Notes under the pieces: model-generated
The model's database searches: none
The model's input: only the letters and a program-made list of their open reading frames with translations
What the model was told of the DNA's origin: nothing
Part shown: positions 4,907 through 47,967 of the stretch, piece after piece
Layout: the number at the start of each line of letters is the position of its first letter
Numbering within the stretch: position 1 is the stretch's first letter
Assembly: GCF_037042905.1 (NCBI RefSeq)
Contig: NC_087245.1
Coordinates: forward strand, 10,790,001 to 10,854,000
Length of the DNA: 64,000 nucleotides
Source of the DNA: Lytechinus pictus
Lineage: Eukaryota
Reading direction: 5' to 3'
Program-made: the position numbers and the translations under genes

Positions 4907-5184
4907 ATGAGGCTTGGAAGGTTATGCAGCATCGTGGTGTTGGTGATTGCTGCCTGCTGTTTACTGGTGAGGGGTCAATCACCCTGTTGTCGGAGAGCTA
5001 AGGGGTGTTCGTTTCCCCCGGGCTGCAGTTGCCCGTTGAAGATGAGTTTTTGTGGGGATCCATCCCGTGGACTACAGATCGTGGGTAAGAAGAGTGACAC
5101 GTCTTCTACCGGAGGATACAGTACTAACAATCTACAGAAATATGCTTACCACCCCGCCGATAGAGATTATGTAAAACACGACAG
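4907..5184 (+). CDS. HCRT: Orexin-type neuropeptide precursor (echinoderm orexin-2-like), first coding exon: signal peptide aa1-23, mature peptide at nt 4976-5083, GKK at 5084-5092, start of C-terminal propeptide
   Basis: Seen: ATG at 4907, hydrophobic signal MRLGRLCSIVVLVIAACCLLVRG, then QSPCCRRAKGCSFPPGCSCPLKMSFCGDPSRGLQIV-GKK (CC-x5-C-x5-C-x-C-x6-C). A donor ACAG|GTGAGA lies at 5184/5185 (phase 2), so the ORF-track stop at 5186-5188 is probably intronic. Known: echinoderm orexin-type peptides have six cysteines starting with CC and a DPSxGL-type amidated C-terminus; human orexin-A begins QPLPDCC and is amidated. The symbol denotes the family homologue only. Confidence 0.93.
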
Positions 5185-5411
5185 GTGAGATTTTGTAAGA
5201 ATTTGTTTATACAAAAGTATAGATTTAGCAGGCATGTATACAAGAAAAGTAACCTCAAAGGCATATAATGGCTTTCAGAATCGAATTATAACTGTTTCGT
5301 ACACGAAAAGTCTGCCATTGCATATTGACTGTACGTTATACCCCCACCCCTCTCCTTAATACCTGACTGTAATACATATGTGGTAGGTTTGTCTTTTGAC
5401 AGTTGGGTATA

Positions 5412-6217
5412 CAATGCGTCCCACAAAAAACGAAACCGAGATTTTTAACTTAATCACAAATACAATAGACAAATGACCTACCATTGTAAAGCTTTAAATC
5501 TCCTCTTTCATCTGAAAGTACTTAGATTACTTCGCATTCACGCATGAGTGAGCGAAAACAATTTGAAGAGGTGATACCAAAAAGTCATTTGGCGGGCTGT
5601 ATCTGGGTTTCAAAAAGAAAACCACATTTTTAAAAAGTTCAATATCTGCCCTTTAATTTGATACCTCAATTACAGAAAATGGTCAAGAAATAACAAAGTT
5701 CTGGTTATTTGAGATAAGGCTTGAATTTCAATAATTTCATAAAATAAAGAGGTTTTACAGGCTAGCGTTACAACTCTCTCGACACTCCGTTTTGTTGACG
5801 ATCAGCCATGCATTAAGTCTTTTGTTAACCATGCGATAGCTTCTGTGGGAAACCGGTGAAAACACGTTTATTTAATGAAATTATGGAAATACAAGCATTG
5901 TTTCGAGGGAACATAACTTTTTTTACTTCTTGACCATTTTTTGTGATTAAGGTATCAAATGAAAGAGCAGATATTGAAATTTTTGGCATGTGATTTTCTT
6001 TTTGAAATTCAGATACCCCCCGCCAAATGAGTTTTTGGTATCCTTTCTCCGAATTGTTTTGGCTCACTCATGCCTGAATGAGAAATAATCTAAGTAATTT
6101 CAAATGAAAGAGGAGATTCTAAGCTTTACATTGGTACGTCACTTGTCTATTGTATTTGTGATTAAGTTATGATAAATCGTCGCTTAATCTCGGTTTCGTT
6201 TTTTCTGGGACGCACTG
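5412..6217. mobile_element. Tc1/mariner-type foldback MITE (806 bp, ~350-bp inverted arms, TA target duplication) in intron 1
   Basis: Seen: TA|CAATGCGTCCCACAAAAAACGAAACCGAGATT ... AATCTCGGTTTCGTTTTTTCTGGGACGCACTG|TA. The arms stay complementary inward (e.g. GATACCAAAAAGTCATTTGGCGGG vs CCCGCCAAATGAGTTTTTGGTATC). Known: CAGTG termini plus a TA TSD typify Tc1/mariner. Confidence 0.9.
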
Positions 6218-9200
6218 TATAATATATCATATTTGAAATATTTTTCTTGCAAAAGATAAAATAATACCCTAAAATCATTTAAAGTATTAAGGCGACAAAT
6301 CACACTTCACTAAGCAGCTATGACATTATTAAATCTGCTTTGTCTTTTCCTTCATGCACCATATTAACCAAATCGTTATTTGACTAATATTTTTTTAAGC
6401 GAAATGAAGAATGGTATTTAACATTGTTTACTGTGAGTGTAAGAGCTAATACAATATATACTGAAGAAAGATCAATTATGAGACAACATTTCATAGTTCT
6501 TACTTCACAAATAACCATGAAAACATACAGATGTATTAATTTTTCTTTTTCGATCAGATTCATTGAACTTGTCACTTTCTTACAGTGCAATATTTTTCCA
6601 AACTTTTCGTTTAAACAAAATAAATTCAGTTATTAAAATTTACAAGGATGAGTACATACAAAAGCATTGTTCCTGAACGGAGATTACAGACCTATTCATA
6701 ATTTTTTGATCTACTGGATCTTTCCAACTCGAAAAATACTTGCATGAGAGTTTGCCAAGAAATTCAAGTTTAAATACTAAAAAAAAATGATTCCTTAAAA
6801 TCTTTAAGACATTAGGAATCTATAGCGAATTAAATGCATTATTGTCCTTACTATTAGATTTTTTTCAAAGCATCATGTGATGTGTCGACAATATTCGTAT
6901 AAATTGTGTCTCTTAAAGCTATTGAAGATACGCTGCGGAACAAGCACTGTTTGAAACTATAGATTACTCCAGTTCTACGCAAAAGACGGAATCTGAATGG
7001 ATGGAAAGTGTTCGGGAAGGTGACTACATCAAGTAGACTATCATCCGTGAAATTGAATGGGAAAAAAGTTGTTTCTATGTCCCATGCGTCATTTCTACTT
7101 CACTCCAAGCACCGATTTATTGCTGGTGATCAATTGCCGTGTGTGAACGGGGGGGGGGGGGGGGAGGGGTCAAGATGGCTTAGGATTTGACTACTGAGTG
7201 TTGTAATTCCCATGTAACTTATATTATAAATTTAGGATCATCACATTCCAATCGGTAACGGGTTAATAGAATCATCCAAGGCTTGTAGGCTCAACCAAAT
7301 ACCTTTATCAAACCATGTTTTAGGTTGTGATGAGGACAATTTTTTATTTCACACTCTGTGCTCGTTTTGTAGTCAGTGTGGCCCCTTTTACATGCATTCA
7401 AAATGATGTAAACATGTAAGTAGTTTTATGGCCTATATTTGCATATAGTAGCCTATTTTACTCCGAATCTGATGAAATTATCATAGTTAAACTTATTTCA
7501 TTTACAAACCCAAAATTTGAATAACATCATGCATGTTTGCTATAAGTTGTATTTTTTCTCCATAGATATAACTGTAGCTGCAAACGGTCGTCTCCTAGTA
7601 CATCACCCTTCAATCAAAAACGATACTTTTAAAATATCATTTCGCCCAAATAGGCAACGTCGCAGGGTGCACTGACGGAGTTTGATAAGCATTGTAATAA
7701 GAAAAGAAAAATTTGACCAAAGGCCTCAAAATCTGTTGCAAATCTGTTTGTAATGACTGACTTAAGTTTGGGTAAAGACTCTACGATGTGAAATATATTG
7801 GGTCATTTTCTAACATTGAAATCATACAAAAATGCAATGAACGTTAAATAATTAGCATTGGATAATGTTTCAATAATGGGAATTGTAATGTCAAGCAAGA
7901 GAGTTTATTAGATACGTCTATCATGTTATTGATGTTTGTACTCAAAGCGATTAAACACATTACGATTCAGTTAATATATACCAGGCAAGGTCAACATGGT
8001 AATCATGATTCACGAAGATTAGATCCTCCTGAATAATACCGTTTGAAGAAATAACAATTACAAAATCTTCATTTGAAATCTTCGTGGAATCTTCATGTTT
8101 GAAAAATAAAAATTTGAATTTATTCATTTTTTCTGTTAGGTTCAGTGTTTCGACTGCATTATTTAGCGCGTTTCATGATAAAATTTTTCAATTATTTTCA
8201 ATCGATGAAGTCAAATTTTTGAAACAATGAAATCATATTTTGCCGAAACTTATACAGGCTTTAAGATGAACTATTTAAACTCATTGTTATTAGCCAGATG
8301 TCCTCAAATCCGTTACCTTCAACTCTTCCTCGTAATCTCGCCAAATCCTACCTAACCACACACCCACCTCCAAGTTCTTACTAACAAACACAAACGTACA
8401 CACCCTACCCGGTCACTGATAAGTTCCATTTTTTATTGTAGGACTTTAACATTTGGCTAGAACAGCTTCATTTCTGGAGAAATATATATGTATAGATAAA
8501 AGCAGAAATCTCGTGCAAGTGGTAACAAACATTTTAATGGAGGTAACTGATGGGTGGATGTAGATACACTCCTTGTGATTGGTCTTTTGTGTGCCTCAAA
8601 GCCAAATGGGAGGACGTGCATAATCCGCACTTGCTATAATTCTGTTGGGATACACATATAATATTTCAATATATTCATGTTCCCAATTCATTCAACATTC
8701 CTTGTTCAGAATAAACAGCTAAATATCAGCAACGAAGCAATGAAGTCATTCCTCCAAACATGCACATTTTCTTTTATTTCGATGTTTGAATTATGAGTAG
8801 TGTCTGCGTTGTTGTTTTAGGTTCGTTACAATTTTTAGTAAAATATCCCCACCCTTTCTATGTTTATGATATGGCATTTTCTGTTTAACTTCCCAAAATT
8901 GCGATTTACCATTTAGCTCCGGGGCAATACTTCAAATTGCTCATGTGATCGATCGTCTCACCATATCCCCCAACGACTAAATTTACAGTATTGTGTAGAT
9001 GGCACAAAGGGTGGAAATGAACGAATTTCAAATTGTAGATTCAGGCACCCGTGACGTCCCAAATACCCGGGACAATCAAGGCACTCATTAACTTGGTCCC
9101 GCTGGAGGAGGAATTCGATTTAGGATTGGCAAATCTCAAACATAGAGCTATTACTATGGGCACCTGCAAGGGGTGCGAACCGTACACCGTATGCAGCAGA

Positions 9201-10725
9201 AGACGAAGAACGAGGGGCTAGCAGAAGGAAACACACGTTACAGGAATAAGTTAAGGCAAGGTTTCGAAAAGGGGAAAGGGGGCTGTGTCGTACTTCGTAA
9301 ATGTCCCTTTGGGGTTATGTACATAGATTATTGAAAATTGATAGATAACTGAATACAGGTTAAATGGTATTTGTACAGCTTGGCTAAACTTTTTGATGAG
9401 AATGTTCCGCCATGGGTAATTCGTCCTTCTCTTGTTGCACAAGATTTTATTTCAAAAGTAGACACTTAAAAAGCACAACAACACACACACACACAAAGAA
9501 AGAAAGCTTATGAATATATATCCTCATATACCTCTACCTTAATTTCAGTATATTAATGGGAATGTTACACGCTAAATACTCAATGTAAAATGGACTCTTG
9601 GACTGTCAGTTTGTGTCGATATGAAGGCCTATCTACTCTTTTATTTAAAAAAAAATCCGCATTAACCACTTTCGGAGTACAGTGTCATATACACTGAATA
9701 TTTGAATTGTATTTTGTCCACTTTGTAATGATAAAAATGATAGATCAAAACTTGGTGACATAAACTACCTGGCAAGTTTAGGAAGAAAGTTTAGATCCCT
9801 GAGATACCAAATATAAAAACAGACAAAGACGTTGAAAGCTAATTAATGAATAACTTAACTACTTTCGGAAAGGCCGTTCAGTGATTGCGCAATCGGTATG
9901 TAGGCGCTAGGCAACTAACTACTATTCTAGCAATTAGTATCCGCCTAATGTTAACGGGCAGACACACGCATACATGCACGGTATGTTCATATCTAATGCT
10001 GATTAGATTTCACAAAATATAATCAATGCATAAGATTGAAAGAAATTTTCATCAGTAGTCCCTTTTTTCAATCTTACTGATCTGGGCATACGAGAAGAAT
10101 AATTTGTAATTCCTGCATATTTTCATTTGATGTGTTCAAAATCACGAAATACCGGACAAAAAGGCGTCCTAGGTAGGGCCGTACAATACGCTCGAAAAAG
10201 TTTTTGAAATCCATGACGACTTGTTACCTTGTATCCAACTTTACATACACAATATATAGATACACACAACACCCCCCACACACACACACACACAACCACC
10301 ACCTCGTTGAAGAGGAAAATGGTCGAGGATGAAAGTAATCTACGATTAAATATCTTTGGACTTTACAAAGAACTCGAGGAAAGGTCTACTCACGTAAGGA
10401 TATAGAAGCACCATAACTACATCATCTCATGGATGTATGATGATATTATCATAAGCTAGATGCCCATCACACTGATGGAGATAACATACCCCTCTATCAC
10501 CGCTGCTAATGTTACGACATTGTCAAGGTCATCGGGGCTCAATCCTTCCGTGTTCGGCTAAGAGGAGTCAGGGCTTGTTGAACGATGGTCGGAAGCTTTT
10601 ACGCCTCTTTGAATCTTGAATTACTCTGATTGCATTGTGACTGGATGTGGAAGAATGGAATTAAAAGATGATGAAGTGGAGTTCTACTTTTCAAGGCCTA
10701 CCTAGGGGTAGAAAGCAAACACACC

Positions 10726-11106
10726 TTAAATGCGTAAGTTAACGTTATATACATGTAATAAAAAATAAAGCAGAGATGAAATATATCCATGGATGCCTTT
10801 CTATTAACCTAAAAACTCTGAAACCAACAAAAAAAATCAAAAGAAATGCTTTTGATACGTTATGATCAAATATTTTGTGTAATTTCTTTCGTGCCGACAA
10901 TAATAGAACACATAAGTGTATGTGATGAAATCAAGATGGTGTTTCCAGTCACTTTATGTTTTACTTTTTGAAGCACCAAATAATAATTTTCGGAAGCGAT
11001 TCTATCTGGGCTTCATTTTTGTAACATATCACAGACACAGGTGACAGGTGGGACCTCGCAGCTCAGACTTTTAAAATGTCAAATCAATGTTAGCCAATGC
11101 CTTTAA
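10726..11106. mobile_element. TTAA-flanked non-autonomous DNA transposon (Kolobok-like ends), degenerate
   Basis: Seen: the right end AATGTTAGCCAATGCCTTTAA loosely mirrors TTAAATGCGTAAGTTAACGTT at ~10726. The reverse complement of 10940-11106 aligns by eye with 24266-24426. Confidence 0.55.
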
Positions 11107-12615
11107 CATTTAACTATTATTCAGAATTGTTAGAATTAGAAAATGTCAATTGAAATGGGGGGGGGGGGGGGAGGGGTTAGTTCATTTTCTATTCGTCGAC
11201 CCCCTTTCTAAAATAAGTATCTAGTTATTAACATGTAACAGGATTTTTTTTGTCATTCAATTTTCAGAGCGAAGGTTTCCAAATGTTCTTCACTTCAAAG
11301 AAAGTTTCATAATTTACAAATATCCATAATTATAGACAAATTTTCATATGAACCATACCAATATACACAAGTCAATGGTGTCAGAAACTGTTAATCATCA
11401 CACTGCCCAGAACTTGCAAATAAGCGTCAACGTATCACGTATATAATACAACAGCGCAAAAAAGAAATCCGCAGTATGATTTAATTTATTAATATAGGAT
11501 TAATCTCATTATCTTGACTAAAGAACAATACAGTATTCATTCACTGGTACTTTTAATGAATAATTAATTGACTTTTCATTTTACTGAGGTATACTAATAA
11601 ATTCTTCGTGTTGCGATGAAGCTGAGAGAAAAATATCGGTATTTTGTTTTATATTTCATTTAAGATATAATATATTATCGATATTTCATTTAATATACCG
11701 TTAATTCATTTTTTCAAGGCTTAAATTGATGCAACTTTCACATGGGGGCGAGTTGGAAGTACGAGTTCCGAAATGTTTTATTTTTCATTTTTATTTCTTC
11801 ATAAATTTTACTTTTAAACTTTTATTTTCTTCAAGGATGTTCACGTGACATCCATGGAGACATAGAAGTTGTCATAAGCCGACGCTTTTTTCATTTACAA
11901 ATCGTGGTGGCTGAGAAAGAACATTATGTCTTACCGGCCTCTAAATATTTGCATCTACGGACGAGGCACAACATAATAAATGATGCAATGGGGGCTTAAT
12001 GTAGCTTAGAGCATCAATCAATGTATTCCATAGTGCGCTCTTTCTAAAATACATTATACATATTGGATTGAGCCTGCAAGAAAAATCAATATTCATTTTT
12101 TGACACATTATTTCATAGTATGTCGATATTGCGAGTTGCATAGGATTCAGTTCGCACCGTCCATTGATAAATCCGGATCTGTGTAACATTATAACATAAT
12201 TTTGGAATATATCTATAACGAATAAACCATTCCATTTATGTCATATACATTTTTTTTTCTATTTCAATTTTATATTGTATGGTATGCTTATGGCATGCTT
12301 CGGCTGTCACTTTCTATCTGTCTTAGCAACATTAGCCAAACGCTTTTGAATGTCATAATTGCCTAGAACATTATAGGATGAATGACTGTGATCTGAAAAA
12401 GCCGGACCAATCTCCAAAACGAAGAGGAGGTTTGCTTTACTTTTAATGTTTGCGTTCTAAATACTTTTGTCAATTTCATATGAAAAAGCTTGTAGTGTCA
12501 CTCATTCTGTTCATATCTTAAGAAGATAACAAAGTTGGGAAATATTTTGTGATGGTTAAACTTCGCTACTAATTTTTTTCCCGAAATAATTCAGTAAGTG
12601 GATGACAGTTTTAGT

Positions 12616-12881
12616 CAGGGGTCAGGGGTGGATCCGGAATTTTCCAAAGGGGAGGGGGTGGCATTTTTATACAGGCAAATACTTGACAACCAAAAAAGTT
12701 TTCACTACAAAATAGAGGTCATTTTGTTCCAGGGGAAAATGACAATTAAATATATACATATATATATATATATAATAAGGTCTTCACTTGAGTTTGCACG
12801 ACAGAGACCCCTACAACAAATAGTTGTTGTGCCTCTCAAAAGGGGCACGGGTCGGATGTCCCTTTGCTCGATCCACCACTG
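12616..12881. mobile_element. hAT-type MITE of the same family as 50129-50390
   Basis: Seen: CAGGGGTGGATCCGG ... CGATCCACCACTG termini, degenerate 8-bp flanks GTTTTAGT/CTTTTGGT, and internal GGTCTTCACT and GTGCCTCTCAA motifs matching those of the 50.1-kb copy. Confidence 0.75.
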
Positions 12882-14150
12882 CTTTTGGTCTCTCCTACGG
12901 CATAAAGATGTAGCCTTACGATAATCTCATGTTGATAGGCAATTACTTAGGATTAATTCTTAGTGTCTTTTTTTATTTGTTGCAATATTCCGCCTTCTTG
13001 CACATCTGATATATCAATAAACCACTTTCCTGACAAAGCGCCTGTTTTTGCAGGATTGTTTCGGTCATAAATTCTTGCAGGTAGAGTTAAGCAATAAAAA
13101 GTATTTTCTGTTATAAGAACAATAACTTATTCATATTGTTAGTTGAGTGTTACAATATGAACGATGATTAAAAAGCTTAATTTCATAGACCGCCAGACTT
13201 TTAGGGCAATTAGCTGAAGGCATGTATACAAACAATCTCCGTTTAATTTGATTAGAATGCAATAATCTCTACCTTCTAACAAACAACAAATGTCCTGTTG
13301 ACGGTTAGGTAACCGATATAACCGGGATAACCGGGATTACCCTAGTTATTGATCCGAGTGTTGACGGCGAATTACATATTACGTATGTTAATGTCTCTCG
13401 CATTGCTATCATGTACTATGAAATCAATTAAGGTGACCTTCGAAATCTAGGCCATATTACAATGTTTGGAATCGTCGTATGCCATCATGCTACTCGGAAA
13501 CCATCAAAGATGGATTGGGAGTGCATCGATCGTCTGGGTAGCTTCATTTTGTATTAGGAGTAATGTTGTCTCGATAGTTTTTTTAAAATCTTCTTTACAT
13601 AATATTATGTCGTATCTGTGGTAAAAGGATTAATTGAATTAACAGTTCACACATACATACAACGCTTTAAATCATATATTTTTTAAATATATAACTTATA
13701 GAGAAATCATGATCAAAATGAAATGCATGTAGGCCTGAGTTTGAGTGTTAATTGGACCATAACTACAAGCCAATGACATGATATAAAAAGTTTTGTAATT
13801 AAGGAAATTATCTGAATGTATTTGATAATGCAATTTCAATCAAAACATATGATAATTGCAGGTTGTACATTTCCTTTTATCTCTTCTCGGTTCTTTAACG
13901 TTCCTTTATCTTTTGTTATTTTTCACATTTGGAAATGACAATCTGATTTCACATTGTTGCTGTCTTGGTTACTCCTTTTTAAATATATTTGATTTAATTC
14001 TAGTTTTAGCCTGAAGGCAAATATTCCAAATGAATCTAACATTTTATTCATGAAATCTGATGTACAACTCACAATTCTACCGAATATCCATGATCATAAT
14101 ACACGAATAACTATATAACTCATTCATTTTTCGGAAGTGTTTCATTTTTA

Positions 14151-14384
14151 CAGGCTTTGCGCCACCAGGGGTGTGTGCAGGGGGTTATCCCCTTTGATTT
14201 TCAAAAAGTGAAAAAAGGGGAAGGAGGTAAAGAAATGTAATAAAATTGAGAGAGGAAAGAGAATAAACAAACGAGAAGAGTAAATTAAAAGAGTTTTCGC
14301 AATAAAACACGATACTACCCCTATGATTCGATGAAAATAAACTCTGACTCCCTCCCCTGTCAAAATATCCTGGCACCGGCCCTG
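14151..14384. mobile_element. Degenerate hAT-like MITE (CAGG...CCGGCCCTG)
   Basis: Seen: GC-rich ends CAGGCTTTGCGCCACCAGGGG and ATCCTGGCACCGGCCCTG around an A/G-rich core. No clear TSD. Confidence 0.5.
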
Positions 14385-15179
14385 CATTAATACATGATAT
14401 TTGGATTTAACGAGTTTGACACAAAGAGAATAATATGTGTGTAAATGACAGAAAGTTGATATGTGTGTAGAACTGAACAAAACAAATAAAGCATGTAATT
14501 AATTTATTCAGTTACGTGATATTCCTATTTTCATAATGATGCCCATTCTGCAGCCTAAGATTTATGATATGAGCCTTAATAATAGGAATATAATTTTACT
14601 GCACTCTTGCACGACGCTTCGTGCATGAGTTTTGCTCGAAAGTTCATTTTTCGTTGAAAACATGACGGAATGAGTCACGTCGACGACCATTTAAGCTTAG
14701 CAAAATGAGGAACACGTATTCCCCAAAGAGGGAAACAGGGTCTCCCTCATTTTAATTGACTCTTCTCTCGAGAAGTGGTTGTACATGTACTTAAAGATCA
14801 GTTATCTGGTATTTATGAGCAGTGACCGCGAAAATGCCATTACACGCATTAGTTGAGTCCGGTCCAAAAGAACAATCCTGTGTGGGCGAACGATCTAGGG
14901 CTGATGCCGTCTTCCGATGTCATTTGTCCTAATGTCTGGTCAACAAGGAACAGGGATGCCGGATGTGATTGTTCCGTATAGTTTCTGAGGAAAGAAGCTT
15001 TATTCAATATCAACCAATCCTGATTAGCTGCAGGAAAACCGGAAAAAACAAATTACGATATATTTTCTAAACAGAGAAATATTTAACCCGCATTGTATTG
15101 TTATTTTTTTTCAAATAGAAACTTGCATACATTGGTATTATTAATGTATCTTGTATTCATAATCTATTTGATGCAAGAT

Positions 15180-15281
15180 AAAAGAGCATTGCAGATAAAA
15201 TGCCTTCCTCAAGGACAGTGCTGAGAATCGAACCCCGGACTTCGATAGGGAGTCGGGAGCCTTGGGCCACGGCACCTCGCC
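15180..15281 (-). mobile_element. tRNA-derived SINE, 5' fragment
   Basis: Seen on the - strand: GTGCCGTGGCCCAAGGCTCCCGACT...GGGGTTCGATTCTCAGCACTGTCCTTGAGGAAGGCATTTTATCTGCA, i.e. a Pol III B-box followed by the GTCCTTGA..AAGGCA core common in deuterostome SINEs. Confidence 0.7.
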
Positions 15282-15936
15282 GTAACTGTCGACATACGAT
15301 TTCTTCCGATGTAACAATGTACACATATTTACGCTTCATCATAAGCTAAAACGGTGATGAAAATGAGTTAGACTATCTGTCATTTTACATTATTTCATCA
15401 TTCAAGGCTTTGTAGAAAGATGAACAAATGAAAGCAAATTGAATGGATTACTATTGTGTAGTCGCATTACCTAAATAAACCCACCAAATGGTCGGAAATC
15501 AATTCGTGCTTCACAAAAAAAAAGTCGATAGCCCAAAGTCCATCTTGGAGACAGTTATCTTGATCTAAATGCCAAGTTATCCAATATAGTACCAAAACTT
15601 TTTTTGTATTTGTAATCGCAATATGTTTCAATTAAAAAACAGGAATTATGACCCAGGGCCTACACAATAATGATTCCTCCTCGATTGTCCGAGATCATGT
15701 TTACTGTAATCTAATGTGGGATATCATATTTCGAACATCTTCGGAAAGAGATATAAATGGAAGTGGAAATGCTTTTTGAGAGGTTATGAGATTAACGGCA
15801 ATTTGAAAACAAAAGACAACTTGCAGATTTGTATTTTAAGAAGGTGGAGGTAGGTCTTGACGTATTATACATATTTTGCTATTTTACAAGAGGGAGAGAG
15901 ACCGAGGGGTTTACAAAATGTGAGCGATATACCCCT

Positions 15937-16380
15937 GCAGAAAGACCTTTTTGCTTCAATGGGGGCTTCAAAATGGCGAATTTTCCAATAAAAAGGCAAA
16001 ATACTGAAAAGGGGTGGGGCAACATGAAGAGCCCATAGAGGGGGGGGGGAGGCTTCGGTGTGCCAGGACTTATCCCTCCGGAGCTGACAGAAGAAAGCCT
16101 ACTTTATCCTCTCCGAATGGTTTAAGAAAAAAAAATGATTTACTGTATAGCAGAAATGCCTTTTTGCTTCATTGGGGGCTTCAAAATGGCGAATTTTCCA
16201 ATAAAAAGGCAAAATACGGAAAAGGGGTGGGGTAACTTGAAGAGCCCATAGATGGGGGGGGGGGGGGTGGGCTTCGGTGTGCCAGGACTTCTTCTTATAT
16301 GCAGCTGATAGAGGAAAGCCTACTATATCCTCTCCGAATGGTTTAAGAAAATAAAAGTGGCTTTACTATACAGCAGAAAG
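15937..16380. repeat. Tandem duplication: two units of 213 and 223 bp plus the start of a third
   Basis: Seen: units start with GCAGAAA at 15937, 16150 and 16373 and share GGGGGCTTCAAAATGGCGAATTTTCCAATAAAAAGGCAAAATAC, GGCTTCGGTGTGCCAGGACTT and TATCCTCTCCGAATGGTTTAAGAAAA. Confidence 0.92.
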
Positions 16381-34609: not shown

Positions 34610-34610
<1 letters not shown>

Positions 34611-36457: not shown

Positions 36458-36676
36458 CGTCAGGCCGGATCTAGGATTTTAGAATGGGGGGCAGAAAGTA
36501 GGTTTGACGAGCAAGAACAAAATACTATACAATTCAAAATTTGACTCTTTTCTATCTCTCTCTCTCTCAAAAAAAAAGAAAACAAAGAAAATAGCCGCCC
36601 AGAGTCTTCACTCACATATCATTCCTAACTTCCAAAAGGCTTTATAGGGGGGGGGGCAAGTGCAACCGGAATCCTG
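36458..36676. mobile_element. Degenerate relative of the hAT-type MITE family at 12616 and 50129
   Basis: Seen: CCGGATCTAGGATTTTAGAATGGGGGGCA start, TTTGACGAGC and GTCTTCACT motifs, and a G-run near the right end. The termini are eroded. Confidence 0.55.
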
Positions 36677-39600
36677 TTTAAATTAGCATTACCACATATT
36701 TTTCCCTAATACATTTAATCAGAATATGACCTCGTACCCCTACTAATCATGCATATACCATAGGTACATGATACTTGTTCTGTGATAGTAACCTCTGTGC
36801 CGTAATACTTCAAACAAGATTGGAAATTGGCAAGTCATCCAGCCTCCTTGTTGGGATTCCTCTTTTTTATTTGCAAATTGACTCTGACCATGGTCATGAG
36901 ACTGTAATGAAATTACGGGGGGAAAGGGTTTGCTTTCCTTCGAGTGGAATAGATCCATTCAAATGTCTTGGGGAGGCCTTAAAAGAATTTACGAATGTGA
37001 TGTGCCGCTACAAAAGATTTCAATTGTCACTCTTTTGGTTAGCAGTGCAGCTACGACTGTGCATAAGCATTCAGATGATCAGTACACCCGAAATGCAAAA
37101 GAACTAATTAGGTTCTTAATCACACTCCTCTCCGAGTAAGACAAGGATCGGTCATTTTGGAGTGGGATTCATATCTTTTGAGAGTGAATAATCGCTCCTT
37201 GAGTAAAACTGTAAAAAAAATATGCACAGTTCAATCCAGAAGGAGTTATAATGCACTCAAAAGATGCAAATCCCATTCCAAAATAGCCGGTCCCTTGTAT
37301 CACTCTGAGTGTGACTAGGGACCAGATTAGCTCGTTTGCATTCAGAAAGTAGTACCCATTTCTGGATATTATTTTATTATTTTTTTTATTATTTGGATAC
37401 AACGTTCACTACATATAGTATTTTCTAAACAATCTTTCCTTGTGACTTTTATCGTCAGTGCGCAATTAGTTAAACATATCATAGTACTGATGTTCTTTTT
37501 TAAAACCAAGCATCGCTTCATTTGAAGTTGTTGATACGTGTTTTTTCTACCTTTCTGTCAAGTGTTGTTTTGGCAGAGAATATTGCTAACCATTTATAAA
37601 GAATACCACGATGATTGATCTCACTACGACGAGTACGGATGTCTTCCTTTGTCCCCATCACTTCCTCGTAGTATTTGTATGCACCTTTCTGATTAAATCA
37701 TTTCGTCATTTCATTTAGAGCAGTCCTTGACTATTTTTTCCATAGGCAGCAGATTAATTAGTGATAGATTATACTTTTCAATAATTCAGTTTATCACATT
37801 CTAGATATAGAAAGGGAGTAGCCCTAAGGTTAAGGACATAGAAAGGCAATAAATGATGATCTCATTGTTTTATTGCTCTGGCCACTAATTTAGTGTCAAA
37901 GTCAATGCTATAGAGCATAGTGACGGCTTGAATTTAGCCGTGCATCTATTTATAGAAACATATTTAACTATGTCAATGTGGATTGTGACGTCTGGTGTCG
38001 AGGTTCTTTTTAAATTTTTTTTACAATGATTTATGATCTGGAATAGGTCTGAAAGTAGATGGACATTCAATCACATCAGAAAAAATGATAAGTGAAAACA
38101 ACGGAGGGTAATTTTCGAACCCTAAGAGCGGAACAAAAAAAAGAAGAACGAAGAAGAATGCAATCAACCAAATAAAAAAACAAACAGACCAAATTGATCC
38201 AAAAACATTCTCTGAATTGAATGTAAGTGAATATCAAGTCATTTTTGTTATATCTATGAACATAATATTCAGAAATGGCGGAAAATGATATGTGAGAAAC
38301 AAATAGAAAAATTCTTTTGGTGAAAGAAACTCCCGAGGACTATGCGTCATTGATATACAAGGACTAACAAAACACAATAAAGTCATTAATTCGGAAATAT
38401 GTGAACAACATAATTTGTTCTCTTCACCATTTGAGAAAAGGTTGTAAAGATGAATAGTTTCGTCATTGCATGGAATTATTACAATACATACATTCGATAT
38501 ACAATAGTTGCATTGGTTTTTTGGTTTGTTTGTCCTCCTATTCGTAATTTGACTGTAACTAAAATGATACTTCATGCATTCAAGCACCGAACTTTAATTT
38601 CCATGATCACGTTTAATCAGTCTGTTTACCCAAGTTAAAATTGTGTTGATCTTTCACATAATTATCTGACTGTGATGGAAAATAATAGGGTCATTACCAC
38701 AAAGTACTCTCCGTAATGGAAGAGGTCTTGAGTCCCGGGATGTATATGTGCTTTGCTAGCGCCATTATGCCACCCTGTTGAAGCACCTAGAGAGTAAAAT
38801 CATACCTATCACCTTATAAAAATGTTTCCTGAAGTCATTCTGTCAGAGTCCGGCCCGGGAGGCAAGAAAGTGGCGATTAATCAAGCAGTTTAATTTCCGA
38901 TATTAGTTTTTCGGGGAGGGTTAATTTTTATTCCAGCTCTCTCTTTCTGTTTCGTCTTCTATCTCCCCCCCCCTCTCCCTTGTCACTTTTTAATTCCCCT
39001 ATCCTTCTTCCATTCTCTCATACATACACACCCACACTAGCACACACACCCACACTCGCACACACATCCAACTCTATATTCACACATTTTCTTTTTCAAA
39101 TATATATTGTACTCTCCGTGTCATCTTTTAAAAGCGCTTTTCTATACCACCCGTGTTTTATATTTTTCTTAAATAGAATAATAAGTGAAACTTGAAAATG
39201 TCTGGGCTTTCTTCTTTTGATTTTATATAAGATTTTGATGAGGTCATCTTTACATATAATGCTTGTTAAATTTTGTTTATCATTCATTAAAATATCAACA
39301 TATTGCTGGAATCGAATTATCGTAGCACATAGGAATTAATCCTATTTTGTGTATATTTCTTTGTATTCAAATCAAGATACTGTTGGAGTGGTTTTGACTT
39401 TCAACTCCCGGTTTTCTCTGAACCCTTGTTGGTTTTGTACTTTATTTAACAAACTGTCCAACAGTCCAACGACTTTGAGCACGTTTTCTTTTGACGTGGT
39501 TTGATGTATAATTTTGATTGCTTTCGATAATATATGACCGGAAATTAATAATTATTGTATACCAATTCGAATCCGTCACTTTTGCTCATCTACTAGCTGA

Positions 39601-40194
39601 GATTTGTCTCCATCGGAAATGCGTTGTAAAAGACGACACCGTCAATGTAGGGATATATGCTGAGTTTATGGCTTATACTGGGGGGTAAATCCTATCCCAG
39701 CCCTGCACTCCTGCATACGCCTGCTGCTCCTGCTTGGAATAATTTCAATGCTCTTTAAGTATTTTTTTTTTGATAGCATTTATTCCATTCATCATAAAAC
39801 AAAAACAAAGCACATACAAAGTTTACATAAATTACACGGGAAAATTGCAGATAATACAATGATAAAATCTGAGAAACAGTTGAATAAAAAAAAGGAGTGT
39901 ACACAATTTATAAATGAATGAGGATGCGAATAGAAAGGGAAAGCCTTATTAGCGCTGCCACCTTTACAAAAATCTGGAAACTGAATATATATATGATATT
40001 GTAAAATACATGATGTAATGAATACTGAATACCAGATATAAACATTGAACATAAAAGGGGGAAATACAAATTATAACACAATGACAATATATATAAATAT
40101 GTATATATCAACAATTACTATGGTACAGATAACAAAATTAATAGTAGGTCTTTAATAAAAGCAAATATGTAAATTATCAATACTTCAAAGATGA

Positions 40195-40325
40195 GGATAA
40201 TGATGATGAGGTGTTGGTATTAATAATGATAATAATTATAACAATCTTAAGAATAATATAATAACAATGATTATGATGATACTTGTTATCATAAGGAAAT
40301 CAATAATGGAAATAATTGTAATAAT
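40195..40325. repeat. Degenerate (ATG/AAT)n low-complexity tract
   Basis: Seen directly. Similar tracts occur at ~45875-46030 and ~60850-60970. Confidence 0.75.
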
Positions 40326-43300
40326 TTCAATTCATAAACTGCTAACATTTATTACAAAACGACAAGGGATAAAGACTTTTGCAGTGAGATACTCTTATTG
40401 AATCCATTATGGGCTCCATCACGATGTCCGTTATCCACTTACCTATTCTCATCAGTGTCGAAATTTATCTCTCGTTCAGTGCAGTGATAATCTCTTTCTT
40501 ATCGGTATTCGATCATGAAATTCAGACCTATTCCCGTACCCAGAAATATGAATTTTGATGAGACGCTTAAGATTTTCGGGTCACGTGACTCTAGGGAACA
40601 TTTTTCTTCCTTTCATCCTCTTAACCCATATCTTAAGTCTTATAATCCTTTTATCAATTGCATCTGTCCCCCCTGCTGCGTACGATTAAGCGATTCTTGC
40701 TCCGGGCTGTGTTAAAAATTGCATGAAACCTTTTCAAGATACAGTTGTATTCTTGACTGTACTTACAAGAAGGGACATCCGTTCTTAAATAAGCAAAGAA
40801 AACGCGGCATTTACATCTTTTTCACTGCTTTAAGAACAATATGAACACCTGTTTGAAGATTGTGAAAGGTCAGTGCCTCCCTTTTTTAACCTTTGTAAAT
40901 ATTCTGGAAGCAAGATCTGCCTCCGATCGGTAGATAATTCTAAGCATGGAATGAATAGTTGCTTGTTTATTGTCTTTTACGTTCAGGCAATTATTATTTT
41001 CCTTTGTGGGAATGTCGAGCTGCATAGCATGCACACTGAACAATACACTTCGACACGTATTTAGGGAGAATAAAAGTGCTATCGGCTTTGATCCAAGGCT
41101 ACCTCACAGCGCCTTACCCTTCATAAAGCACCACTTAAAAGGTAACATTATCCAGCCCACAGAGGTATTCATGTCATAAATTGTGCCATGTCAAATGGAA
41201 AATTCCCCAATATGGCCAGCCGATAGTGTAAATTCTACGGAGTTCGTGATATTTGCAGCATGGATGGCTTATTTACGGTAATAGTTCGCTCGACCACTTC
41301 TGTAAACAGCCCGCATTGTAAAAGCCTTCATTATTATTCTTCGCGCAATTTTCAACATGAACAGAGAATTTAGATGACATAGCTCTGAATTTCATTGTCA
41401 ATAAACTGTTTGGATTCTCATATTTTTTTCTTCTAGTCGTCCTTCTCCCTCTCTTCTCCATCGCTCAAACGAGTTCCCCTATTTCTTTTGGTATCCTTTT
41501 CATTACGGAGTTTCCATCATCAACGGATCTTGTCTCTGATTACATGGAAACTGAAATAGTACTTATATTTCTACGTCATATTGTGAATACGATATCAAAA
41601 TCACTCACAAATATTACCTGCCTTTCAATACATCATTTCTTTTCAAATAGAAACCAAATATTTACCGAGTCTTGACTTACACAGACTCTTTCATCTTTAT
41701 TTTCTTTCGAAATGCGGGATCCTTCTGAAAATCACTATTAAAAGAAGCTATAGAAATATGATTCTGTTATAAATCAACACATGATTTTAGCTGGACTGTG
41801 CAACTAAAACATGAGAAAAAAAATTCAGCATACTTTACCTTAGCAAATTCTTCAATGTTTCACTTCCAATCAATACATTTAGTTTTAACGAACGCCAGTA
41901 TCTACCGAACTTTAAATAACATTAATCAGCTAAACTTTAGTATCTTTTATCATTGAATAATTTATTTAGAAATAAAATTAGATCACGTGTAACTAAAATG
42001 AATAGTTAAATCAAGAACTTTTTACGGGGATATTTAACTTTAAAAAATGAATTAAATATATATGTATGTATATATATAGGTAGGTAAGTATATAGTGATA
42101 TACTGCAATATATAATAGTGCTCGACTGTGTAGGAGCTGAGTATATATATATACATATACATATTTATTTTTTAGGGGGTAGGGGAAAGCAACCTCTATT
42201 TATCGGTGAATAATACAGTGTCATCATATCAGTTTGATCTGCCTCTCGGTAGGAAAGAATATTGGTGTAATATTATCCAAGAGCCTAAATGCTTCGAATT
42301 ACACCCCTGTTAAAATAACCTTACAACTCTGTAACTGCGGTCAAAATATAAACAGAAAAGTAAAGCGACGCATGCATGATGAGTAAGTCGCCGTATGAAT
42401 ATCGATTATTTTTTTTTATTTGAACAAGAAATAAACAAACAAAAAAGAATGAATAAAATAAAAAATAGAAAGGATAGAGGAAAATTGCAACTAGCCAAAT
42501 GAAATGCGGGGTCGAAGAACTAAGTGGGAGAAATGAAATCAATGAGTCCAATGATCCATTGGAATTTTTAGCGGAAGACCAACCATGAATTATGAATAAG
42601 TATTGACGTCTTGAAAATGAAGAGTCAATAATGTATTCTGTGCATTACACATCATAAATACGGAGTTCTTTTGTGTAAGATTTCGAAAACAAATTTTATG
42701 GTCGGAATCTATATGCAGCATTCCATATTTTGTAAAAGGTCTATCAAAATGGGATATTATGAAGCGAGCAATTATGATAACCCAAAACGTCAGTTTGTAG
42801 GCTGGTTCCGGAAGACATAGATATACCGAATTATTCCAGTGCATGCATTCAACTATTTCTCATGAAACATATTTAAACTAATTTTTTGCTAGGTCTATGA
42901 TGAATCCTTTTTTTACGATATTTTTATTGAATTTTTCAATATGAATATAAAATGAAAAGGGACCACATCACTATCTGATGTCATGATAGACAAAACTTTG
43001 CTTGGGCATAAAAATAATTACACACACTCGTTACCTTTGAAATAGACAAAAAGTCCTCGGCTAATGTCTTGGATGTGTCAGACTTGTTACAAAAGTACCT
43101 CGTAAATGCGAGTAATTCTTACTAATGACGTCCATGACGTGTATCATTTGTATACTAATACTTGCACCAAGACGACTCTTTAATCAACTTGTCTGAAACT
43201 CTGAATAAATTTGGGTTAAGAATGTGTTATGATGTATTTAAAATGACAGTGATACCTATTGGCAATAATTATATAGCCATATTAGCTATGAGTTGTTTAT

Positions 43301-43641
43301 TTTGTTTTCCACAATGATTGATAGTGTTTCTATATTTTCTCTCTATAGAAAAAAGAAAAAGAAAATGTCAAACATCGTCGACTTTATTCATCTTATATTG
43401 CTGGCAAATACATTTAAATTTTATTCTCTAAACAGGAGAAAACCCATCTCCGCCACTAAAATTCCGACATTATTTTAAGATTTGGAACCCCCGTGTTCTC
43501 TTTGTACAGAAGTGCCCGCGTTAGTGGTTCCCACAACCACGATGTGGCCAAAGAGTCGAACAGCAATTTTCAGCATTAATTCAACTCATTGTGTCTCAAA
43601 GAGGGTCATTCATTTTTTTTTCAAACCGTTGTTCTTGACAG

Positions 43642-43727
43642 ACACAGCAGAAATCGAAGAAAGTTGGAACAATTAGTACGGAGTAACAACTTGGAGCTTT
43701 CAGACATCTTAAAGGCACTTCAAAGAG
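43642..43727 (+). CDS. HCRT: Proposed coding exon 2 of the orexin-type precursor: (R)HSRNRRKLEQLVRSNNLELSDILKALQR
   Basis: Seen: pyrimidine tract and acceptor TTCTTGACAG| at 43641, donor AGAG|GTATGG at 43727/43728. The 86 nt are open in the frame that completes the phase-2 codon of exon 1 (AG+A=Arg), end in phase 1, and encode a natural-looking amphipathic helix after a basic cluster. The link to exon 1 is inferred from phase and sequence character, not from transcript data. Confidence 0.72.
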
Positions 43728-43782
43728 GTATGGATCTACTTTAAAGGATTACCCTGGTCATGGAATTCATATGAATGGATCC

Positions 43783-44260
43783 AAGGGCAATTTTACCCTG
43801 GCAATAAGTTGGTTTTGATAGAAGCAGAAAAATAGAGCAAAAAAGTGTCGAAAGTTTGATGAAAATTCCGTCAAAGAATAATGGAGTTATGTTTTTTTAG
43901 TGTTGACTTTGGGACGTCACAGACGAACAGCTCCATCGTATGCCATGTGATATAAGTTTTAAAAAAATGTTATTTAATCGAAAAATGTAAAGTGATTTTA
44001 TTTGTCCGGTAGATATATCACCTCATACCCCCTTCCATAATAAGAATTTTAATTCATCTTGTTTAATTTAAAAAAATAGTTGATCTTACATCATAATGGA
44101 GCAGCTGCGAACATATGACGTCATGATTTAAAAATGTTAATAATTCATATTACATAATTCTTTTATCATTTGATGGATTTTCTCCAAACCTTAACCTATA
44201 TTTTTCTATAATTTTATTCTTTTATTCAAACAAACTTACTTTCAGGGTGAACTTCCCCTT
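43783..44260. mobile_element. Palindromic non-autonomous DNA transposon (TTAA/Kolobok-like ends) just inside the proposed intron 2
   Basis: Seen: AAGGGCAATTTTACCCTG ... CAGGGTGAACTTCCCCTT(AA), with inner mirrored motifs GACGTCACAGACGAACAGCTCCAT vs ATGGAGCAGCTGCGAACATATGACGTC. Confidence 0.7.
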
Positions 44261-45264
44261 AAAAATTACATTCAACATTAAAAAACCCATAGAGTTCAAT
44301 GAATATCGGATAAAACAGTTACTATGGACTACATGACATCTTTCAATATCAGAGTGATCTAGCGAAAGTTTTTTTCTTCTCCGAAAAGACATCAAAAGAA
44401 TTAAATAAGTAAGATCATCATGTTTTACAAGAAAGGTTGTTTTAATACAAAATTAAATGATTTATAATTCAAATAAAGATTTCGATTTCGGTCAGACTTT
44501 TAATATTTTGACTTCTTAATTACATATTATTTTCATTGATATCAATTTCAGGCCAGAATACTTTTTTGTATTGTTATGGTTGTTCGAAAAACATGTAGCA
44601 TTAACCAATCATTTGTTTATGACTTTAAAATTGCCATTAGGGATACATAAGCAGCATCATTTCGGGTGCTGTCTCGCAATGAAAAAGATGTAACATGAAA
44701 TAGAGTTTTTAAAACTAAAATTTCAGCATGTACACTTTAGAAGTACCTATGTACCATAATAGAAAGTAAAGTCCCAATCCAGAACGGAAATATCAAAGTC
44801 AGTAAAAAAATAAAAAAGGGGAAACGTACTTTTATGTCGACGTTCCTTTTATACTTACGTCTTAAAAATGTTCTTACTTATTACATTGTTATTTTGTTGG
44901 ATAACTGTAAGTATCGAATGGTGTCTTTTCATGCATATGCTGTATGTCAAGTCAACGAAGTGCGCTTTCGATTTTAACTCTTCTACATCTTTAAACGAAT
45001 TGACACCTACAAGACATGAGATACTTGGTATCATAATGGTAGGATGAACACGAACTGAGATGGAATGACGGTTTAGAGTTACCCATCACATGCTATTTCA
45101 GACAATGTCAGATGAAACTACGAGAGAAAAAATAAAGAACCTTTGAAGATTTGGTATCAGACACAGAACACTAGAAATAATGCCTCAGCATTAGTCGTTC
45201 AAAACGGGAAGTACACATTATATTACAGGGGTCTGTCTATGAACATCGACTCTGAACATCTACC

Positions 45265-45860
45265 AATAGAGTCAGAAAAAAGTACACCTCTGAAATCGCC
45301 GATGTAATGATAAAAGGGATATTCGAAACACAATAATCTCATAAATTTCCTAAAAGAGTATATCATCTCCAGAACAATTCGATACCATATTTACATTTTT
45401 TGGAGTATACCATGTATACGTTTACGGTTGGATACGGTCGGTAATTCTTTGTTATGATGTAAAATTCGATTTTACCCAATGAAAGGAACTCATAAATCTA
45501 TACTTGCCAGAATTGCAGTAAATGTCGTCTCAAAAACCTTTTCAACTAGATTGAAATAGATGCTAAAAACGTTTTTATTAAACAATTATCAAGATAACTT
45601 AACAAGTACTATTTTTGCAATGAAGATTATCATATTTATTGCAACTCTTGTAGGATTATGACTTGATATATATCTGTATTCATGATTTACTTCCTGCAAT
45701 TCGAATTTTACATTTTACAACAGGTTAATATCTCCTAATTGTACGGTATTAAGTTATTCTGGAGAAAATACTTTTTTGGACATATATGAGACTTACGTGT
45801 TACGGACATTGTTTTGGGTTTTTTTTACGAAATTTGCGATTTTTTTTAGGTCTCGCTTGA
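45265..45860. mobile_element. Old inverted-repeat (foldback) DNA element
   Basis: Seen: TCTCATAAATTTCCTAAAAGAGTATATCATCTCCAGAACAATTCGATACC (~45337) is mirrored by GGTATTAAGTTATTCTGGAGAAAATACTTTTTTGGACATATATGAGA (~45746). Outer ends are uncertain. Confidence 0.5.
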
Positions 45861-47279
45861 GAACACTGATAATCTTAATGATGATATCAACAAAGATAAT
45901 GAGGATAATGACTATGATGATGAAGGTGAGAGGAAAAGTAAAAATGTGTTAAGTATCAGTGATGATAACGACAATGATGATGAATATAATTGTACGACTG
46001 ATAATGATGATGATGGTGATAATGATAGTATAGTACAATTCATTTAGAAATTATTTTAATAAGTTCTTAAATGAGACAACTGTGTCATTCAAGATTTGTG
46101 TTTACCACATTAATGAATAATTATCATTATCGTTTGAACGATGATGTTATTTTAGAAGAGTAACATACGATTGGTGCCTGGAGATTAGGTTCTCTAGATT
46201 TATAGTTCCCCTATCAAAGTCATAAATATTTCATTGGAATAGAAATTAGTTTAATGGCATTGGATTTATTATTATTTTATCAGAGAAATACTAGGTCAAT
46301 CATTTATATAATTTCCGATAGTAAAGTCTGCATATTCTCTATTCTCAATCAATAATATATATTAAATAGCAATTTTCCACCCAAGGCAATTTAATTAATA
46401 GTCCAATCTCCTGCTATAATAATAGGAATCATTTTACCAATGATTTAACAATTACTAGTATATTCTAGTTGCTTTGTTTAAATACTAATGATCATACAAA
46501 GAAAATGATATTGACAATTAATTTGTTAGAATACTTTGACCTAAAAATTTTGATCAGCTGGCCTTGAATTGAGTCATGCATGCTGACTAAATGTAAAATT
46601 GGTAATCGTGCAAATTTATAAACCAAGTCATGTTTTTCCGGCGGCTACGGTGCCAATAAATGCGACTGAAAATGATAATGATACTTCACAGCATTCATTT
46701 TGCATTCATCCCAGCATTCAAATATACGGCAAATTTGCTTTTCTTAATGGGACGATTATTGCGGCAGAAGGTTGCTCGCATCGCCCACTCTGAAAATTAT
46801 TACGGGAAATTTTTAGAAAAATACTCTTTTTAAAGGATAGGTGTAATTGTTTTATCTTCTAAAAGGTAATATTGGTGACACTGAATAACGGTGCCCTTCA
46901 GCAGTCACGTTTATAGCTTTGGAACTCTTTGAAAGTAATTTATTTATTTGGAAAAGATGATATTGACGCTCATGAGAAGTTATCATTTAGCCCCCTTAAA
47001 TTTCCACCAGGTATTATGATCAAATATTGTAAAAAAAAAATGATTTTTTTATGTATATACTGCGCCTTAAAGCTCTTCTTACAGTAACTGATATTCTATC
47101 TTTCATCTTTTTGAAAAGTATTTTTTTTAAGAAAAAGCAATCAAAAGAAAGTCTGTCTGAGATTGCGCACTACAAAAATGCTGATTTAAGATTACATGTA
47201 TGTAAACGTTTAGAAAGAATTTGCAATTATGTTTTGTGTTTACTATTCGTAATATAAGTGTTAATATTCAATGAACACC

Positions 47280-47441
47280 CAGGGAGTGTTTCATCAATAT
47301 GTTCATCCGACAAGTTGTCAGATCTGACATCTTTCCCTGGTGTTCATTGGCTGAGAGACACTGTTCCTACGGTAACTTTCGGATAAAATGGGACTTGTCT
47401 AATAAAACGTCCGACAACTTCTTTCATGAAACGACCCTCTG
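47280..47441. mobile_element. ~157-bp MITE, copy 2 of the family at 16461-16617
   Basis: Seen: GGGAGTGTTTCATCAATAT...TCCGACAAGTTGTCAGATCTGACA...TTTCATGAAACGACCC, colinear with copy 1 in the same orientation. Confidence 0.85.
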
Positions 47442-47929
47442 ATCATCACAATTAGAAATGATTACAACGCCATTGAAAGAAATCGAAGGTCAAGAAGTGT
47501 CCCTGTCTTTTAGATTAATGAACACTGTATTATTTTTAGTTATATATTATTAAACGTATATAATTTGAATTACATTGAGAAGGCTGCTTAGTTATTTTTA
47601 CGAAAAAATTTGTTCATGCATGATTTTCTGCCACTATTTAATATTGAGCAATGTTCAATAATTGATATTGATTATTTCTATCATTAATGACTGTACTTGA
47701 ATAGCCATGATGGCATATTGGATATATTGTGTGCAGATTTTAAATGCTATGTCATGCATATTCATGCAATACTTACCTTATTTTTGGTCACTTTACTGAT
47801 GTTAGCCAAACTCTAATCTAGAAACAAATGAGTCCTGAACCCTGTATAAAATATAGCTTTAGCTTCAATGTCATCCAGAATAAATTGATGTTTTAAACTT
47901 GTTCCTCATATTCTTGTTATTTTCTGCAG

Positions 47930-47967
47930 ATAATGGATTACCGTGGACCAGAGGCCAATTACCGTAA
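47930..47967 (+). CDS. HCRT: Proposed terminal coding exon 3 of the orexin-type precursor: DNGLPWTRGQLP-stop
   Basis: Seen: strong acceptor TTCTTGTTATTTTCTGCAG| at 47929. A phase-1 join with exon 2 (G+AT=Asp) reads to TAA at 47965-47967 and is followed by UTR-like sequence. The full precursor would be 93+28+12=133 aa. Confidence 0.7.

What the first reader, a model, noticed from the sequence alone, without database searches (positions are those of the whole stretch)
4907..47967. Tiny neuropeptide ORF spread over 43 kb: two hidden exons complete a 133-aa orexin-type precursor
Seen: exon 1 ends in phase 2, the 86-nt exon at 43642-43727 is phase 2 to phase 1, and the exon at 47930 reads in phase 1 to a stop, all with canonical GT-AG sites. 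Joined, the C-terminus reads ...GLQIV-GKK-SDTSSTGGYSTNNLQKYAYHPADRDYVKHDR-HSRNRRKLEQLVRSNNLELSDILKALQR-DNGLPWTRGQLP*. Inference: most of the window is a ~38.5-kb intron of this gene, and a single-ORF call (93 aa) truncates the protein.
Basis: partly seen in the sequence, partly recalled or inferred. Interest (0 to 1): 0.7.

Follow-up and report, generated by a model that had tools for sequence, protein, structure and literature searches.

The report
Sea urchin orexin-2 gene, three exons
This is an ordinary, spliced sea urchin gene for an orexin-type neuropeptide precursor: three coding exons with a 38.5-kb first intron, nearly identical to a protein already annotated in the purple sea urchin, and its predicted active peptide lies wholly in the first exon.

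Summary
All four splice sites are canonical and in phase. Assembled contigs from public runs skip both introns to the base: 5184>43642 in 2 of 2 contig runs laid on both stretches, and 43727>47930 in 4 of 4 runs. The spliced 133-aa protein is 123/133 identical to S. purpuratus RefSeq XP_011675746.1, also 133 aa. It is the OX2-type orexin precursor. The sea cucumber OX2 gene has the same three coding exons, phases 2 and 1, and an 86-nt middle exon (Chen 2019 supplement). The OX1 paralogue lies about 15 Mb away as one coding exon. The predicted bioactive peptide (residues 24-59, six cysteines, Gly-Lys-Lys) is entirely in exon 1, so the 93-aa call loses only the tail. A 37-38 kb intron is also on record for sea cucumber OX1. 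One untested lead: exon 2 may be an eroded remnant of the allatotropin/hemichordate 'cryptic' domain. It rests on a by-eye match only. The scan held no earlier orexin note.

The parts
4541..4906 (+). 5' UTR part of exon 1 (minimum extent; true start not shown); holds three short upstream ORFs starting at 4549, 4622 and 4657
   Evidence: Contigs of runs X15 and X2 begin at 4541 and 4544 and run unbroken to 5184; uORFs
4907..5184 (+). Coding part of exon 1, residues 1-92 plus two bases of Arg93
   Evidence: 87/93 identical to XP_011675746.1
4907..4975 (+). Predicted signal peptide, residues 1-23
   Evidence: Hydrophobic core from residue 9, Kyte-Doolittle 11-residue mean 3.4; cleavage site inferred, SignalP not available
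4976..5092 (+). Predicted mature OX2-type peptide (Gln24-Val59, six Cys at 27, 28, 34, 40, 42, 49), amide-donor Gly60 and Lys61-Lys62 cleavage site
   Evidence: same Cys spacing as the OX1 paralogue; 36/37 identical to S. purpuratus and 27/37 to Diadema over residues 24-60
5185..43641 (+). Intron 1, 38,457 nt, GT-AG, phase 2
   Evidence: Skipped exactly by contigs in 2 of 2 contig runs laid on both sides
43642..43727 (+). Exon 2, 86 nt, residues 94-121, predicted helix-turn-helix with a tribasic site at 98-100
   Evidence: 28/28 identical to S. purpuratus, 20/28 to Diadema; one match in the genome search; helices only at pLDDT 54-67
43728..47929 (+). Intron 2, 4,202 nt, GT-AG, phase 1
   Evidence: Joint seen in 4 of 4 runs, 4 studies, two organism labels
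47930..47967 (+). Coding part of exon 3, residues 122-133 and stop
   Evidence: 8/12 identical to S. purpuratus
47968..50058 (+). 3' UTR, about 2.1 kb, with AATAAA at 50036 as the likely poly(A) signal
   Evidence: X15 contig ends at 50058; contigs of the other three runs reach 49973-50002; hexamer positions

Best explanation
The window holds a three-exon, spliced sea urchin gene whose 133-residue product is the orthologue of echinoderm orexin-type precursor 2, predicted to be secreted and cut to release one disulphide-bonded, amidated neuropeptide. Shown: the exons, both junctions, the 133-aa frame and the near identity to the S. purpuratus protein. Inferred from family knowledge: the signal peptide (1-23) is removed, a prohormone convertase cuts after Gly60-Lys61-Lys62, Gly60 donates the amide, six cysteines form up to three disulphides, Gln24 may cyclise, and the 36-residue peptide activates an orexin/allatotropin-type GPCR, most likely in control of feeding or activity. 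Exons 2 and 3 encode only the C-terminal pro-region. The long intron is ordinary non-coding, repeat-bearing DNA.
For: Junction-spanning contigs. No contig continues into intron 1: mean depth in bin 5018-5268 equals the value expected if cover stops at 5184 in both contig runs (4.63 and 36.7). Orthologues of 133 aa at 123/133 and 98/133 identity. A. japonicus OXP2 gene: coding exons CDS 1-284, 285-370, 371-417, so phases 2 and 1 and an 86-nt middle exon (PMC6586643 supplement 3). By eye the peptide shares the Pro-x-x-Cys-x-Cys-Pro core with the OX2 precursors of A. rubens, O. victoriae and A. japonicus and with S. kowalevskii orexin. The paralogue L002:1474-1848 aligns to P0001 at E 6e-10, matches by eye the S. 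purpuratus precursor listed as orexin in PMC10987541 and is a single ORF like AjOXP1. Two six-cysteine OX precursors are on record for S. purpuratus (PMC4772807); an S. purpuratus orexin receptor is listed.
Against: No Pfam Orexin match for the window protein or its two orthologues; only the paralogue hits it, below the cut-off (E 0.084). In the ESM Atlas an orexin cluster ranks 15th of 30 at 0.83, behind CCAP and neuropeptide S, all under the 0.9 lead level. RefSeq calls the orthologue 'uncharacterized', and I could not check directly that XP_011675746 is the accession named SpOXP2. The cleavage site is Lys-Lys where the other precursors seen have Lys-Arg. No peptide mass or receptor assay for an echinoderm orexin turned up in my searches. 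The RNA status of the contig runs is a tool guess; junction 1 rests on two runs.
Confidence: 0.95

Rival explanations
1. The gene ends at the stop at 5186-5188 (93-aa precursor by read-through or intron retention), and the downstream exons belong to something else.
For: An in-frame TGA sits two bases inside the donor, so a retained intron would give a clean 93-aa precursor that still holds the whole mature peptide.
Against: Both contigs leave the window at exactly 5184 and resume at 43642; no contig depth beyond 5184 in that bin; both database orthologues are 133 aa with this C-terminus. Contigs drop rare forms, so a minor retained isoform is not excluded.
Confidence: 0.03
2. The spliced contigs come from a processed retrocopy or another locus, not from splicing of this locus.
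For: The tool marks these runs only as guessed RNA.
Against: Genome searches gave one exon-2 match and, for exon 1, only this locus and the 32%-identical paralogue. The X15 contig differs from the window at only 2 of 644 and 15 of about 2,130 bases. Intron positions are conserved in sea cucumber.
Confidence: 0.01
3. The gene model is right but the peptide is not an orexin: it is another cysteine-rich secreted peptide.
For: No Pfam Orexin hit; Atlas neighbours are mixed neuropeptide families.
Against: Cysteine spacing, the amide-plus-dibasic site, the paralogue pair and the exon structure all match published echinoderm OX1/OX2. The Pfam model is titled prepro-orexin and barely reaches the OX1 paralogue either.
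Confidence: 0.02

Closest known systems
Strongylocentrotus purpuratus XP_011675746.1 / LOC105443818 (inferred to be SpOXP2, Sp-Ox2)
   Same: 133 aa, 123/133 identical, exon-2 peptide 28/28 identical, same Gly-Lys-Lys site
   Different: Ten substitutions, four in the last 12 residues; RefSeq name is 'uncharacterized'; its intron sizes were not available to me
Apostichopus japonicus AjOXP2 (MF401989; Chen et al. 2019, PMC6586643)
   Same: Three coding exons, phases 2 and 1, 86-nt middle exon, Asp-Arg just before junction 1, six-Cys peptide; by eye 5 of 28 exon-2 residues identical in register
   Different: Coding introns about 5.4-6.2 kb and 4.7 kb against 38.5 kb and 4.2 kb here; has a 5' non-coding exon, not seen in the 2 contigs here; Lys-Arg site
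OX1-type paralogue (L002 here; AjOXP1; S. purpuratus BCM_Contig134164)
   Same: CC-x5-C-x5-C-x-C-x6-C spacing and Gly-dibasic site
   Different: Single coding exon; no similarity in the tail (alignment stops near residue 71); in A. japonicus it is the OX1 gene that has a 37-38 kb intron, in the 5' UTR by the transcript coordinates
Saccoglossus kowalevskii orexin precursor and protostome allatotropin precursors
   Same: Six-Cys peptide (hemichordate); by eye a similar hydrophobic helix pattern downstream of the peptide
   Different: They carry a full 'cryptic' domain ending in an acidic loop that looks EF-hand-like (my recalled label); that loop is not kept here
Vertebrate prepro-orexin (Pfam PF02072)
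   Same: Signal peptide followed by a Cys-bonded, amidated peptide
   Different: Four Cys and a second peptide, orexin-B, in vertebrates; six Cys and one peptide here; no Pfam hit

Membership tests
Echinoderm orexin-type precursor (OX2) | N-terminal signal peptide directly followed by the peptide | tested here: met
   Hydrophobic core and Gly23-Gln24 boundary by hydropathy; SignalP not available, cleavage site inferred
Echinoderm orexin-type precursor (OX2) | Six cysteines, the first two adjacent (eleutherozoan pattern, PMC9793003) | tested here: met
   Cys 27, 28, 34, 40, 42, 49; definition
Echinoderm orexin-type precursor (OX2) | C-terminal Gly followed by a dibasic site | tested here: met
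   Gly60-Lys61-Lys62, kept in both orthologues; Lys-Lys, not Lys-Arg
Echinoderm orexin-type precursor (OX2) | OX2 gene structure: three coding exons, phases 2 and 1, 86-nt middle exon | tested here: met
   against the A. japonicus coordinates
Echinoderm orexin-type precursor (OX2) | One of two eleutherozoan paralogues | tested here: met
   Genome search found 2 matches: this locus and a single-ORF OX1-type gene
Echinoderm orexin-type precursor (OX2) | Statistical sequence or tree placement with named OX2 precursors | tested here: inconclusive
   Only two unnamed echinoid orthologues were retrieved; comparison with named OX2 sequences was by eye
Orexin/allatotropin signalling system | Mature peptide activates an orexin/allatotropin-type GPCR | not testable with these tools
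   An S. purpuratus orexin receptor sequence is listed; no assay seen
Vertebrate prepro-orexin (PF02072) | Pfam gathering score; tandem orexin-A and orexin-B | tested here: not met
   No hit for exon 1, P0001 or P0002; one peptide only
Allatotropin/hemichordate 'cryptic' domain | Conserved helical segment plus acidic loop downstream of the peptide | tested here: inconclusive
   By eye 6 of 19 identical and 5 aliphatic swaps for residues 101-119 against the S. kowalevskii precursor; acidic loop absent; no profile test could be run

The most novel reading that the evidence does not exclude
The small, strongly conserved 86-nt exon 2 is the surviving helical half of the 'cryptic' domain that links allatotropin and hemichordate orexin precursors. 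Echinoderm OX2 precursors would then keep an eroded copy of a domain said to be absent from them (PMC10987541), as its own exon with fixed length and phases, possibly released at the tribasic site 98-100 as a second peptide or acting as a folding or sorting module.
Probability: 0.3. Interest if true: 0.45.

Novelty: already known. Interest (0 to 1): 0.15.

Why it matters
Little beyond annotation: it gives a verified gene model with UTRs for an OX2 precursor whose S. purpuratus orthologue is labelled 'uncharacterized', and it shows the OX2 exon plan is shared by sea urchins and sea cucumbers while intron 1 grew about sixfold. Echinoderm orexin function is still open: the papers read report only expression data and down-regulation by SK/CCK in sea cucumber. 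If exon 2 is a cryptic-domain remnant, the domain's loss would be gradual and lineage-specific, and a conserved second product of the precursor could be tested.

Tried and rejected
Raw RNA reads X23 and X24 (about 6 in 100 of each run read) gave zero depth on exon 1; tissue unknown, so no conclusion. The run finder listed no holder on record as RNA. Nested genes: 27 of the 37 stop-to-stop frames of 90 aa or more were scanned in Pfam (left out: the exon-1 frame and nine others, mostly low-complexity); none reached a cut-off and three had sub-threshold hits at E 0.02-0.08; small exons of another gene are not excluded. Rfam: 0 matches. PDB sequence search: 1 chance hit at E 1.6. AlphaFold model of P0001: mean pLDDT 48, not used for fold search. 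ESM Atlas, whole protein and residues 88-133: all feature scores under 0.9, no allatotropin cluster shown. A profile of the two orthologues found no further relatives among 101 candidates. The 1.84-billion-protein profile search never ran, so the cryptic-domain idea has no statistical test. An upstream exon at the acceptor-like site 4691 was considered: 2 of 2 contigs run through it. Jekely 2013 and Mirabeau and Joly 2013 were not held; the supplement of PMC6209648, which may list Sp-Ox2 with its accession, could not be read. A full-text search for the accession and two peptide motifs found them in no main text. A search for the cryptic domain with orexin, allatotropin and Saccoglossus gave 2 papers, neither placing it in echinoderms in the passages read; one search added none among the one paper of seven that I opened for it.
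Full report
Observation. Exon 1 (4907-5184, 278 nt) ends in phase 2 at a CAG|GTGAGA donor. The 86-nt exon 43642-43727 has an AG acceptor and a GT donor. Exon 3 opens at 47930 and reads to a stop at 47967. Joined by script they give 402 nt, 133 residues and one terminal stop. Splice signals alone are weak evidence: a simple filter found 55 phase-compatible open candidates between exons 1 and 3, including the true exon, and a stricter one found 15 and missed it.

Splicing evidence. The run finder listed 24 runs, 18 holding the exon-1 stretch, none on record as RNA. I laid four runs on 500-8000 and four on 43300-51300; X2 and X15 were in both. In X15 a 2,859-nt contig covers 4541-5184 with its bases 1-644 and then leaves the stretch. 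A record of the same length and depth places 43642 at base 645, 43727 at 730, 47930 at 731, and ends at 50058. In X2 a 1,006-nt contig does the same (641, 642, 727, 728). So junction 1 is direct in 2 of 2 contig runs tested, with no exon in between. Junction 2 is listed as a GT..AG joint in 4 of 4 runs, from four studies and two organism labels. The contigs of X9 and X12 extend 512 and 541 nt beyond exon 2's 5' side; I did not lay them on exon 1. Depth in bin 5018-5268 equals what cover ending at 5184 predicts, so no contig retains the intron. The two raw-read runs gave no reads on exon 1 in the 6 in 100 read. The unit spans at least 4541-50058, with AATAAA at 50036.

Identity. The exon-1 query found 2 proteins among 4 candidates, both 133 aa: S. 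purpuratus XP_011675746.1 ('uncharacterized LOC105443818') and a Diadema setosum protein. The spliced product is 123/133 and 98/133 identical to them; exon 2 is 28/28 and 20/28. The precursor has a hydrophobic N-terminus, then Gln24-Val59 with cysteines at 27, 28, 34, 40, 42 and 49, then Gly-Lys-Lys. The genome search gave a second match about 15 Mb away on the same contig: a single 124-aa ORF with identical cysteine spacing and Gly-Lys-Arg. It hits Pfam Orexin weakly (E 0.084), while the window protein does not.

Literature. Semmens et al. 2016 (PMC4772807; passages and section 3.3.8) define ambulacrarian orexin-type peptides by six cysteines, an amide Gly and a dibasic site, and list two S. 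purpuratus precursors. Wood et al. 2018 (PMC6209648; one section; supplement unreadable) measured Sp-Ox1 and Sp-Ox2 transcripts in embryos. The crinoid paper PMC9793003 (passages and supplement hits) places the OX1/OX2 duplication in the eleutherozoan ancestor. Chen et al. 2019 (PMC6586643; section, Table 2 passage and supplement 3 rows) give AjOXP1 one coding exon and AjOXP2 three, at CDS 1-284, 285-370 and 371-417. That is phase 2, phase 1 and an 86-nt middle exon, exactly as here. Their coding introns are about 5.4-6.2 kb and 4.7 kb; AjOXP1 has an intron of 37-38 kb. The supplement of Rinne et al. 2024 (PMC10987541) prints an S. purpuratus precursor that by eye matches the paralogue, and OX2 and hemichordate precursors whose Pro-x-x-Cys-x-Cys-Pro core by eye matches the window peptide. 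I conclude that this is the OX2 orthologue. That XP_011675746 is the sequence called SpOXP2 is inferred, not checked; a full-text search did not find the accession.

Mechanism. Shown: gene structure, splicing, frame, orthology. Inferred from neuropeptide biology: signal cleavage after Gly23, convertase cut at Lys61-Lys62, amidation from Gly60, up to three disulphides, possible pyroglutamate at Gln24, and action on an orexin/allatotropin-type GPCR (an S. purpuratus receptor is listed). Function is least certain. Feeding control is suggested by down-regulation of both sea cucumber orexin genes after SK/CCK injection (PMC13548532, passages); OX2 is up in female starfish sensory tentacles (PMC9759900, passages). 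The mature peptide lies wholly in exon 1, so the 93-aa call truncates only the pro-region.

The intron. It is 35% GC, with a foldback element near its start, dispersed repeats and AT microsatellites. No Rfam family and no Pfam family above cut-off in 27 of 37 long frames was found. A 38-kb intron in an 812-Mb genome is unremarkable.

The lead. Exon 2 is better kept than the spacer before it (28/28 against 27/31 in S. purpuratus; 20/28 against 19/31 in Diadema), a small difference on small numbers. Its length and phases are fixed between urchin and sea cucumber, and it is modelled, at low confidence, as two helices with a break at 109-111. By eye, residues 101-119 line up without gaps on the first half of the S. 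kowalevskii 'cryptic' domain: 6 of 19 identical plus 5 aliphatic swaps. My hand estimate of the score is not significant by itself, and amphipathic helices often match by chance. The acidic loop that follows in the hemichordate and allatotropin precursors is missing. Rinne et al. state that the cryptic peptide is not found in other orexin precursors; two reviews (PMC5860471, PMC5818035; passages) cite it only for hemichordates and protostomes. The Atlas gave no allatotropin neighbour, and the profile search that could test the idea did not run. I put it at about 0.3.

Verdict. Observation confirmed, interpretation supported, novelty low: a known neuropeptide gene with a known exon plan. Interest 0.15. 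The one earlier scan note near this place concerns foldback transposons upstream of the window; a word search for orexin notes found none. Other papers seen only as search listings or opened without bearing (bioRxiv 10.1101/129783; PMC6629687) are not used as support.

Noticed in passing
L002:1474-1848 (G000:C1, near 25.82 Mb): OX1-type orexin precursor paralogue, 124 aa in one ORF, same contig about 15 Mb from the window.
   Followed up: partly
window 5446-6169: Foldback or MITE-like element about 260 nt into intron 1: 304-nt inverted arms at 85% identity, outermost 25 nt perfectly complementary; very abundant in contigs of other loci.
   Followed up: partly
window 16461-16612 and 47282-47433: The same 153-nt dispersed repeat (85% identical) sits in introns 1 and 2; the second copy attracts very high contig depth in all four runs.
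   Followed up: no
window 3334-3702 / 3740-4104 and 15937-16385: Tandem duplications of about 370 nt (78%) upstream of the gene and about 230 nt (86%) in intron 1.
   Followed up: no
window 4646-4691: Acceptor-like site in the 5' UTR, not used by the 2 contigs seen; the sea cucumber OX2 gene has a 5' non-coding exon, so an alternative upstream exon is possible.
   Followed up: partly
window 4549-4670: Three upstream ATGs give short ORFs of 39, 12 and 3 residues in the 5' UTR.
   Followed up: no
window 5084-5092: The cleavage site after the peptide is Lys-Lys in all three echinoid OX2 sequences, against Lys-Arg in the other orexin precursors seen.
   Followed up: no
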